A program made the position numbers and the translations under genes. From Escherichia coli (GTDB lineage: Bacteria; Pseudomonadota; Gammaproteobacteria; Enterobacterales; Enterobacteriaceae), in NCBI RefSeq assembly GCF_003334315.1, contig NZ_QOWR01000129.1: 801 bases of DNA; one strand, 5' to 3'. Numbering within the stretch: position 1 is the stretch's first letter; each line of letters opens with the position of its first letter. The notes below the pieces were generated by a model that was given only the letters and a program-made list of their open reading frames with translations, did not search any database and was not told the DNA's origin. Positions 1 through 801 of the stretch are shown piece by piece.

Positions 1-149
1 GGTTGAGAAGCGGTGTAAGTGAACTGCAGTTGCCATGTTTTACGGCAGTGAGAGCAGAGATAGCGCTGATGTCCGGCAGTACTTTTACCGTTACGCACCA
101 CCCCGTCAGTAGCTGAACAGGAGGGACAGCTGATATAAACAGAAGCCAC
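1..149 (-). CDS. insA: InsA (IS1 transposition regulator / N-terminal part of the InsAB' transposase), 5' partial: first 49 codons, continues off-window
   Basis: GTG start at 149..147 on the minus strand. Translation is (M)[48 protein letters not shown], open to the window edge. It contains the CxxC...CxxC zinc-finger pattern typical of InsA. The six-frame track misses it because the start is GTG and the ORF runs off the window. Confidence 0.9.
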
Positions 150-156
150 TGGAGCA

Positions 157-160
157 CCTC
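157..160 (-). promoter_or_regulatory. Shine-Dalgarno-like GAGG for insA
   Basis: GAGG on the minus strand, 7 nt upstream of the GTG start codon at 149..147. Confidence 0.5.
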
Positions 161-169
161 AAAAACACC

Positions 170-197
170 ATCATACACTAAATCAGTAAGTTGGCAG
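170..197 (-). promoter_or_regulatory. Putative insA promoter embedded in IRL (-35-like CTGCCA, -10 TATGAT)
   Basis: On the minus strand, TATGAT lies at 175..170 and a weak -35-like hexamer CTGCCA at 197..192, 16 bp apart. This is about 20 bp upstream of the insA GTG start. The insA promoter is known to sit partly inside IRL; exact hexamer assignment here is my inference. Confidence 0.4.
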
Positions 198-204
198 CAT
201 CACC
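182..204 (-). repeat. IS1 left terminal inverted repeat (IRL), about 23 bp
   Basis: Reverse complement of 182..204 is ggtgatgctgccaacttactgat. It is an imperfect inverted match to 349..371 (ggtaatgactccaacttattgat), as expected for the IRL/IRR pair of IS1. Confidence 0.9.
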
Positions 205-348
205 CGCCGTCTCAATAGCCCGGTTGTTGTATTTAATCAATACAGCCTGAAGACGTTCTGAATATTTCCTCTCCTGCACTACATTGTTTTTTGTACGGGA
301 CTGGATACCGTCATTAATCAGTTTTTCCAGCAGCTCTACCGCCAGATT
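205..348 (-). pseudogene. 144-bp internal gene fragment, in frame with no start or stop; tentatively a type I restriction enzyme R-subunit (HsdR) C-terminal remnant, truncated on both sides by IS1
   Basis: Minus-strand translation from 348 to 205 is NLAVELLEKLINDGIQSRTKNNVVQERKYSERLQAVLIKYNNRAIETA (48 codons, no stop). The ...SERLQ...KYNNR.I... pattern matches my recollection of the conserved C-terminal region of HsdR proteins. The HsdR assignment is from memory, not a search. Confidence 0.45.
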
Positions 349-371
349 GGTAATGACTCCAACTTATTGAT
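349..371 (-). repeat. IS1 right terminal inverted repeat (IRR), about 23 bp
   Basis: ggtaatgactccaacttattgat at 349..371 is the imperfect inverted partner of the IRL at 182..204. The insB stop codon (366..364) lies inside it. Confidence 0.9.
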
Positions 372-801
372 AGTGTTTTATGTTCAGATAATGCCCGATG
401 ACTTTGTCATGCAGCTCCACCGATTTTGAGAACGACAGCGACTTCCGTCCCAGCCGTGCCAGGTGCTGCCTCAGATTCAGGTTATGCCGCTCAATTCGCT
501 GCGTATATCGCTTGCTGATTACGTGCAGCTTTCCCTTCAGGCGGGATTCATACAGCGGCCAGCCATCCGTCATCCATATCACCACGTCAAAGGGTGACAG
601 CAGGCTCATAAGACGCCCCAGCGTCGCCATAGTGCGTTCACCGAATACGTGCGCAACAACCGTCTTCCGGAGCCTGTCATACGCGTAAAACAGCCAGCGC
701 TGGCGCGATTTAGCCCCGACGTATCCCCACTGTTCGTCCATTTCCGCGCAGACGATGACGTCACTGCCCGGCTGTATGCGCGAGGTTACCGACTGCGGCC
801 T
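364..801 (-). CDS. insB: InsB (C-terminal catalytic part of the IS1 InsAB' transposase), 5' partial: reading frame open to the window edge, stop at 366..364
   Basis: The track ORF 364..741 ([16 protein letters not shown]...[15 protein letters not shown]) matches IS1 InsB. The same frame stays open upstream of that Met to position 801 ([25 protein letters not shown]...), as expected because InsB is expressed as a frameshift fusion to InsA and not from this ATG. Acidic residues in DEQWGYV, MTDGW and RIERH are consistent with a DDE-type catalytic triad (exact residue assignment inferred). Confidence 0.93.
786..801 (-). CDS. insA: 3' end of insA of copy B (last 5 codons plus stop), overlapping the insB frame
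   Basis: Minus strand from 800 reads ggc cgc agt cgg taa = GRSR-stop, the InsA C-terminus (...LKNSGRSR). The TAA stop is at 788..786, in the 0 frame relative to the -1 insB frame. The fragment is very short, so confidence is moderate. Confidence 0.6.

What the first reader, a model, noticed from the sequence alone, without database searches (positions are those of the whole stretch)
1..801. Direct-repeat IS1 pair is recombinationally unstable, so its presence may mark a recent or heterogeneous event
Homologous recombination between the two about 768-bp direct repeats would delete the 144-bp segment and one IS1 copy, leaving a single IS1. Finding the two-copy form suggests a recent event, a mixed population, or a mis-join.
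Basis: inference. Interest (0 to 1): 0.3.

Follow-up and report, generated by a model that had tools for sequence, protein, structure and literature searches.

The report
Two IS1 copies splitting an hsdR gene
The window is the gap between two IS1 insertion sequences sitting 144 bp apart, in the same orientation, inside a restriction-enzyme gene; this is a common and well-understood arrangement, and its presence does not by itself point to a recent event, a mixed culture or an assembly error.

Summary
The window holds 204 bp of one IS1 (left end, bases 1-204), exactly 144 bp of a type I restriction R-subunit gene (hsdR codons 879-926, bases 205-348), and 453 bp of another IS1 (right end, bases 349-801). 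Everything lies on the minus strand, so the two IS1 ends are in direct orientation. The two IS1 pieces do not overlap, so the window contains no repeat. "Two 768-bp repeats" is therefore an extrapolation. I could not find the source record, so the outer flanks remain unseen.

A comparable IS1 pair in escU occurs in two-copy form in 3 complete E. coli genomes and as the exact one-copy product in 2.

The inference "therefore recent, mixed or mis-joined" is not supported. About 10% of 5,426 complete E. coli genomes gave a hit for same-strand IS1 ends within 560 bp. All six that I fetched were full-length pairs, with spacers of 27-462 bp. The escU pair is shared by isolates from three countries. 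Published data found no detectable loss of adjacent 787-bp chromosomal repeats in wild-type cells over about 30 generations.

The two ends best match different IS1 variants, which favours two separate insertions. Verdict: ordinary, already known.

The parts
1..204 (-). Left (IRL) end of IS1 copy A: IS1 nt 1-204. It carries the start of insA (GTG at window 149-147; the product begins [11 protein letters not shown]...). The copy continues beyond the left edge of the window.
   Evidence: 204/204 identical to IS1 copies in L002 and L003. The insA part is open. Four diagnostic bases (IS1 nt 69, 118, 124, 127) mark a minority variant.
182..204 (-). 23-bp terminal inverted repeat IRL of copy A (GGTGATGCTGCCAACTTACTGAT), ending exactly at the junction with hsdR.
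   Evidence: Read directly from the sequence. The boundary was confirmed by alignment to intact hsdR and to IS1 copies.
205..348 (-). 144-bp in-frame fragment of a type I restriction endonuclease R-subunit gene (hsdR codons 879-926, NLAVELLEKL...NNRAIETA).
   Evidence: 144/144 identical to WP_001531245.1's gene in E. coli SA186 and to the same gene in about 59 complete genomes. The region falls in the PF11867 T1RH-like_C / DUF3387 domain.
205..213 (.). Presumed 9-bp target site of copy A (CGCCGTCTC). It would be duplicated on the far side of copy A if that copy is a simple insertion.
   Evidence: Inference from the usual 8-9-bp IS1 target duplication (seen in comparators). The second copy of the duplication lies outside the window and is untested.
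340..348 (.). Presumed 9-bp target site of copy B (CGCCAGATT).
   Evidence: Inference as above. The far side of copy B lies outside the window.
349..801 (-). Right (IRR) end of IS1 copy B: IS1 nt 316-768. It carries the 3' part of insB (stop codon at 366-364). The copy continues beyond the right edge of the window.
   Evidence: 453/453 identical to IS1B-type copies in L021. The insB frame is open from 801 down to the stop.
349..371 (-). 23-bp terminal inverted repeat IRR of copy B (GGTAATGACTCCAACTTATTGAT), starting exactly at the junction with hsdR.

Best explanation
The window is the interval between two separate IS1 elements. They are inserted 144 bp apart, in the same orientation, in the 3' part of an hsdR gene that belongs to an integrase-associated defence island of E. 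coli type. The gene is knocked out. The upstream fragment would end in the read-through tail ...GDAANLLI*.

The two visible ends belong most probably to two slightly different IS1 variants. The pair therefore most likely arose from two independent transposition events, not from copying one element. A second hit in a gene that is already dead costs nothing.

If both copies are complete, RecA-dependent recombination, or replication template switching, between them can delete 912 bp and leave one IS1. That happens at a low rate per generation. The two-copy state can be inherited for long periods and says little about age, heterogeneity or assembly quality.

Shown here: the anatomy of the window, the identity of each part, the direct orientation, how common and persistent such pairs are elsewhere, and the existence of a collapse product for an analogue. 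Inferred: that both copies are complete, that the outer flanks are the rest of hsdR with 9-bp duplications, and that there were two events.
For: Exact IS1 termini abut colinear, in-frame hsdR sequence that is 100% identical to the intact gene, at both junctions. Both IS1 pieces are on the same strand.

End B is 453/453 identical to IS1B-type copies, and those copies differ from end A at 3-4 of 204 positions. End A is 204/204 identical to a different copy, which differs from end B at 3 positions in the IRR. I built a synthetic IS1 that joins end B, a borrowed middle and end A. No IS1 among about 75,000 places in 5,426 genomes matches it better than 99.6%, that is 3 mismatches.

Most IS1 places are near full length: 9,050 of 9,599 records have a place covering at least 80% of the element.

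Same-orientation close pairs are common and heritable. A one-copy product exists for the escU analogue. Deletion between adjacent 787-bp chromosomal repeats is rare in wild-type cells (PMC7145654). Tn9 is the classical direct-repeat IS1 pair, and recombination between IS1 direct repeats has been described (PMC12065110, which cites Braedt 1985).
Against: The outer flanks, the missing IS1 nt 205-315 and the far ends of both copies are not in the window, and the source was not found. Completeness, target duplications and the two-event history are therefore untested.

The predicted truncated HsdR products for simple 9-bp-duplication insertions (889 aa and 934 aa) are not on record. None of the 61 complete genomes with this hsdR allele shows either single insertion.

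In four of the six comparator loci the second copy, or both copies, lack a target duplication. Pairs therefore often involve rearrangements rather than two clean insertions. The source genome could also carry a chimeric IS1 variant that is absent from the collection.
Confidence: 0.72

Rival explanations
1. Mixed population or assembly mis-join. The sample holds cells with IS1 at site A and other cells with IS1 at site B (or an unresolved repeat graph), and the assembler threaded them into one two-copy path.
For: Neither junction occurs in any searched collection: complete E. coli genomes, plasmids, phages, IMG/VR, GTDB representative genomes and JGI metagenomes. IS1 is a classic cause of repeat-induced assembly errors (general knowledge).
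Against: Both inner junctions lie only 144 bp apart and outside the repeated IS1 body, so even short paired reads or single 250-bp reads can link them. Genuine pairs of exactly this architecture are frequent in finished genomes. There is no positive sign of chimerism in the sequence.
Confidence: 0.08
2. Single-event origin or tandem array. One IS1 next to the 144-bp segment transposed replicatively into the sister chromosome, or unequal crossing-over occurred. Either would give hsdR-144-IS1-144-IS1 or a longer (IS1+144)n array with a 912-bp unit.
For: The window (204+144+453 bp) is compatible with a walk through a 912-bp repeating unit. IS1 can form cointegrates (general knowledge).
Against: The two ends match different IS1 variants, and no known IS1 combines them. 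Copies made in a single event should be identical. In the four comparator pairs checked, the spacer is not repeated in the flanks.
Confidence: 0.06
3. At least one of the two IS1 elements is a truncated remnant, so there is no pair of ~768-bp repeats and little or no substrate for the proposed deletion.
For: Truncated or internally deleted IS1 copies exist. One is the remnant next to another hsdR in L003. Others are the single-IS1 hits spanning about 677 bp. The window itself shows only 204 bp and 453 bp, which do not overlap.
Against: Most IS1 places are near full length. All 12 copies in the six fetched pairs span 768-786 bp, that is both ends are present. The coding parts visible in the window are intact.
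Confidence: 0.1

Closest known systems
Tn9 and the IS1-flanked r-determinant of R100/NR1 (direct-repeat IS1 pairs)
   Same: Two IS1 elements in direct orientation bracket a DNA segment. Recombination between them excises the segment and leaves one IS1. (Tn9 as a classical IS1 pair: PMC12065110. The rest is textbook knowledge.)
   Different: Here the bracketed DNA is a 144-bp fragment of a gene, with no cargo and no selectable function. Mobility as a unit, outer target duplications and completeness of the copies are all unseen.
Natural close IS1 pairs in complete E. coli genomes, e.g. the escU (ETT2) pair of strains ECCWS199, JSMCR1 and LR-27
   Same: The same architecture was verified here: full-length IS1, then a short fragment of the disrupted gene, then full-length IS1, all on one strand. 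The copies are 0-3 nt apart. A matching one-copy collapse product is found in other genomes.
   Different: A different gene and different spacer lengths (27-462 bp against 144 bp). Several of those copies lack target duplications. For the window, that feature cannot be examined.
Engineered 787-bp direct-repeat deletion reporters in E. coli (tetA duplications; Lovett-type assays)
   Same: The repeat length is almost identical to IS1 and the repeats are adjacent.
   Different: The repeats are artificial, perfectly identical and have no spacer. The IS1 pair may differ at a few bases, and IS1 transposase can add recA-independent events (Braedt 1985, as cited in PMC12065110).
IS-inactivated restriction genes (r- m+ variants)
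   Same: An IS inside hsdR abolishes restriction and leaves the hsdM and hsdS genes untouched, which is a safe way to lose restriction (general knowledge). hsdS and a DUF4268 gene lie upstream in the intact island.
   Different: The phenotype was not tested. The state of hsdM and hsdS in the source is unknown.

Membership tests
IS1 (IS1-family insertion sequence) | Characteristic 23-bp imperfect terminal inverted repeats at the element tips | tested here: met
   IRL GGTGATGCTGCCAACTTACTGAT at 204-182 and IRR GGTAATGACTCCAACTTATTGAT at 349-371, each ending exactly where hsdR sequence begins.
IS1 (IS1-family insertion sequence) | Near-identity to reference IS1 copies over the element body | tested here: met
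   204/204 and 453/453 identity to annotated IS1 copies.
IS1 (IS1-family insertion sequence) | Complete 768-bp element with insA, the A6C -1 frameshift site and insB | not testable with these tools
   The window shows IS1 nt 1-204 of one copy and nt 316-768 of the other. The frameshift region (about nt 300-315) and the remainder of each copy lie outside it, and the source was not found. The visible insA and insB parts are open.
IS1 (IS1-family insertion sequence) | 8-9-bp target-site duplication flanking each inserted copy | not testable with these tools
   Only one side of each copy is in the window. Comparator copies show 9-bp and 8-bp duplications, or none.
Direct-repeat IS pair able to collapse by homologous recombination | Two copies in the same orientation | tested here: met
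   Both pieces align to the same strand of single IS1 copies.
Direct-repeat IS pair able to collapse by homologous recombination | Long stretch of shared sequence between the two copies | tested here: inconclusive
   There is no overlapping IS1 positions in the window. The ends match variants that differ by only 3-7 nt over 768, so high homology is expected if both copies are complete.
Direct-repeat IS pair able to collapse by homologous recombination | One-copy product or heterogeneity present in the sample | not testable with these tools
   No reads are available. No genome with this hsdR allele shows a product or an intermediate.
Composite transposon (Tn9-like) | Target duplication flanking the whole IS-segment-IS unit, and evidence of movement as a unit | not testable with these tools
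   The outer flanks are unseen. The 144-bp segment occurs only inside hsdR in 5,426 genomes and nowhere on plasmids or phages, which argues against spread as a unit.
Type I restriction endonuclease R subunit (HsdR) | Sequence identity to an annotated hsdR and location in its C-terminal T1RH-like_C/DUF3387 domain | tested here: met
   144/144 nt identical to the gene of WP_001531245.1, codons 879-926. The flanking C-terminal part hits PF11867. It is only a fragment, so it is not a functional member.

The most novel reading that the evidence does not exclude
The IRR-144 bp-IRL junction is not a passive by-product of two insertions. It is part of an actively generated structure: a (IS1+144 bp) tandem unit made in one step by IS1 transposition between sister chromosomes. 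This would fit a general tendency of IS1 to create close same-orientation pairs, which appear several-fold more frequent in complete E. coli genomes than random placement predicts, and many of the checked copies lack target duplications.
Probability: 0.05. Interest if true: 0.3.

Novelty: already known. Interest (0 to 1): 0.08.

Why it matters
It matters little beyond annotation. The window documents an hsdR gene knocked out by two IS1 elements, which probably gives a restriction-minus host. The practical lesson for the scan is that a close same-orientation IS1 pair should not be flagged as a sign of a recent event, a mixed culture or a mis-assembly. Such pairs gave hits in about a tenth of finished E. 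coli genomes, and some are inherited across continents.

Tried and rejected
1. Looked for the source or any sibling that carries either junction. Searched complete E. coli genomes, plasmids and phages. Ran exact-pattern scans of IMG/VR, GTDB representative genomes with both junctions and JGI metagenomes with both junctions. All were empty.

2. Looked up predicted gene products by exact sequence: the 33-aa junction ORF, HsdR 1-881 + GDAANLLI and HsdR 1-926 + GDAANLLI. None is on record. A protein search with the junction peptide found only ordinary HsdR fragments.

3. Followed the 117-aa HsdR C-terminal remnant, which is on record in many assemblies. It turned out to be a different, 96%-identical allele, truncated 21 bp inside the 144-bp segment with no IS1 at the joint. 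It is not the source.

4. Checked why some IS1 hits covered 86-89% of the window, more than the 82% that a single IS1 can explain. The extra match is chance extension of the alignment into unrelated flanks.

5. Considered a single IS1 with a 144-bp target duplication. Rejected, because that structure contains no linear IRL-144-IRR stretch.

6. Tried to read Braedt 1985 (PMC218880). It is not held.

Full report
ANATOMY. The 801-bp window has three parts.

Bases 1-204 are the left end of IS1 read on the minus strand (IS1 nt 204 down to 1). This part ends exactly at the tip of the left terminal inverted repeat (window 182-204, GGTGATGCTGCCAACTTACTGAT). It is 204/204 identical to IS1 copies in E. 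coli ECCWS199 and WCHEC020031. It carries the start of insA, which is open.

Bases 349-801 are the right end of IS1, also on the minus strand (IS1 nt 768 down to 316). This part starts exactly at the tip of the right inverted repeat (349-371, GGTAATGACTCCAACTTATTGAT). It is 453/453 identical to IS1B-type copies. The insB frame is open down to its stop codon at 366-364.

The 144 bp in between (205-348) are 100% identical to an internal, in-frame piece (codons 879-926) of an intact type I restriction R-subunit gene. That gene, encoding WP_001531245.1, is found in about 59 complete E. coli genomes. In strain SA186 it sits in a defence island. On one side lie a small hypothetical gene, a phosphorothioated-DNA-binding restriction endonuclease and a tyrosine integrase. 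On the other side lie a DUF4268 gene and hsdS.

THE OBSERVATION. Both IS1 pieces align to the same strand of single IS1 copies. However, the window does not contain a repeat. The two pieces cover non-overlapping parts of IS1, nt 205-315 are absent, and the repeat finder returns nothing. "Two about 768-bp direct repeats" is therefore an extrapolation from knowing what IS1 is. Whether either copy is complete cannot be seen.

SEARCH FOR CONTEXT. Neither junction occurs in 5,426 complete E. coli genomes, PLSDB plasmids, phage records, IMG/VR, GTDB representative genomes or JGI metagenomes. Products predicted for simple insertions are not on record: the 33-aa junction ORF, HsdR 1-881 + GDAANLLI and HsdR 1-926 + GDAANLLI. 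A protein search found no IS1-tailed HsdR. All 61 complete genomes that carry this hsdR allele have it uninterrupted across both sites. No single-insertion intermediate and no one-copy product is therefore known for this locus.

ONE OR TWO IS1 VARIANTS. End B is identical to IS1B-type copies, and those copies differ from end A at 3-4 of 204 positions. End A carries four diagnostic bases (IS1 nt 69, 118, 124, 127). These match a minority variant whose right inverted repeat differs from end B at three positions. I built a synthetic full-length IS1 that joins end B, a borrowed middle and end A. No IS1 among about 75,000 places in the complete genomes matches it better than 99.6%, that is three mismatches. 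The simplest reading is that the two ends belong to two slightly different elements. That favours two separate insertions over a one-step duplication. The evidence is suggestive, not conclusive, because the unknown source genome could carry a chimeric variant.

TESTING THE INTERPRETATION ON NATURAL ANALOGUES. I queried the complete genomes with only the two inner ends abutted (60 nt of the IRL end plus 60 nt of the IRR end). The two ends of a single intact IS1 are too far apart to be joined into one place. Full coverage therefore marks an IS1-short spacer-IS1 arrangement on one strand.

569 records in 527 of 5,426 genomes qualify. About ten of the 60 best rows are single, internally deleted elements (span about 677 bp, or one annotated transposase). 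The other rows show two or more IS1 transposase annotations under the match. All six loci I fetched are pairs in which both copies have both ends (768-786 bp) and lie in the same orientation. Their spacers are 27, 95, 129 and 462 bp, and the copies differ by 0-3 nt where they could be compared.

The 462-bp pair in the ETT2 gene escU is present in isolates from China (chicken), South Korea (chicken) and Ecuador (human). Its copies have diverged slightly, and one isolate has a rearranged outer flank. This pair has been inherited through substantial clonal spread. For the same locus, the exact one-copy product (flank-IS1-flank, 1,568 bp) exists in 2 genomes. The two-copy form exists in 3, and copy-1-only forms also occur.

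RATES. A chromosomal reporter with directly adjacent 787-bp repeats gave no detectable deletions in wild-type E. coli over about 30 generations. It gave 0.0024% per generation only when uup and radD were both deleted (PMC7145654). A recent IS1 evolution study treats Tn9 as the classical IS1 pair and cites recA-independent recombination between IS1 direct repeats (PMC12065110). Without selection for the product, such rates leave a two-copy allele essentially fixed on the time scale of a culture or an outbreak.

CHANCE EXPECTATION (rough). With random placement in a 4.9-Mb genome, a strain with 10-40 IS1 copies is expected to have 0.005-0.09 same-orientation pairs within 560 bp. The observed share of genomes with at least one candidate is about 10%, and the median copy number is about 11. 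Close pairs therefore look enriched rather than depleted. This comparison is crude, because it includes plasmids, false positives and clonal relatedness.

CONCLUSION. The window shows an hsdR gene interrupted by two IS1 elements 144 bp apart in direct orientation, most likely from two insertion events. This is an ordinary, long-known kind of structure: Tn9, the R100 r-determinant and many chromosomal pairs. The inference that the structure marks a recent, heterogeneous or mis-assembled state is not supported by the comparative and published evidence, and it cannot be tested on this sample without reads.

The remaining rivals are an assembly or mixed-population artefact, a tandem (IS1+144) array, and truncation of one copy. 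Each has a low probability, and all would be settled by about 1 kb more sequence on each side or by long reads.

Noticed in passing
L004 9933-10028 (also L005-L011, L014); corresponds to window ~205-225: A different allele of the same hsdR (96% identical) is truncated in many assemblies: its 117-aa C-terminal remnant is listed in 142 index blocks. Homology to intact hsdR starts 21 bp inside the 144-bp segment, 12 bp from the presumed IS1-A target site. There is no IS1 at the joint and the DNA upstream is unrelated. Two independent breaks within about 20 bp of each other in this gene are unexplained.
   Followed up: partly
window 195-213 vs L001 3999-4017: The hsdR sequence just outside the IS1-A site reads CAATCACCTG|CGCC. 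This resembles the IS1 tip plus flank, GCATCACC|CGCC, which is why BLAST extended the hsdR match 6 bp into IS1. Both presumed 9-bp targets also begin with CGCC (CGCCGTCTC and CGCCAGATT). This may be target-end homology or coincidence.
   Followed up: no
L021-L026: Among six verified close IS1 pairs, only copy 1 of the escU pair (9 bp, CTCATACTG; seen in L021 and L023) and copy 1 of the A23 pair (8 bp) show a target duplication. All second copies, and both copies in two pairs, have none. There is also no duplication across the outer or inner flanks. Many close pairs therefore seem to involve adjacent deletions or recombination rather than two clean insertions.
   Followed up: partly
(E. coli genomes survey): About 10% of complete E. 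coli genomes have a candidate same-strand IS1 pair within 560 bp. Random placement predicts roughly 0.5-9% for 10-40 copies. This hints at clustering of IS1 insertions (local hopping, hot regions, plasmids, or tolerance in genes that are already dead). The estimate is crude.
   Followed up: no
L003 968-1704 (E. coli WCHEC020031; same site in other strains): A truncated, more divergent IS1 lies about 45 bp downstream of a different type I hsdR gene (WP_001096907.1). It carries the same minority left-end variant as window 1-204 (204/204), but has 13 mismatches to end B. Many of the best hits appear to be this remnant.
   Followed up: no
window 136-138 (insA codon 5); L002 937-948: IS1 copy A encodes InsA with Tyr instead of Ser at residue 5 (VASVYIS... 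instead of the usual ...SVSIS...; the usual form is recalled from memory). The only fetched full-length copy with this left end (L002) has an unusual right inverted repeat, GGTAATGGTCCC instead of GGTAATGACTCC.
   Followed up: no
L008, L009, L010, L011 contig ends: Several draft assemblies that carry the truncated hsdR island end in IS1 termini at different positions within a few kb of the remnant (equivalent to L004 positions 5703, 7896 and 9761, plus one downstream at the end of L010). This island is a frequent IS1 target in some lineages.
   Followed up: no
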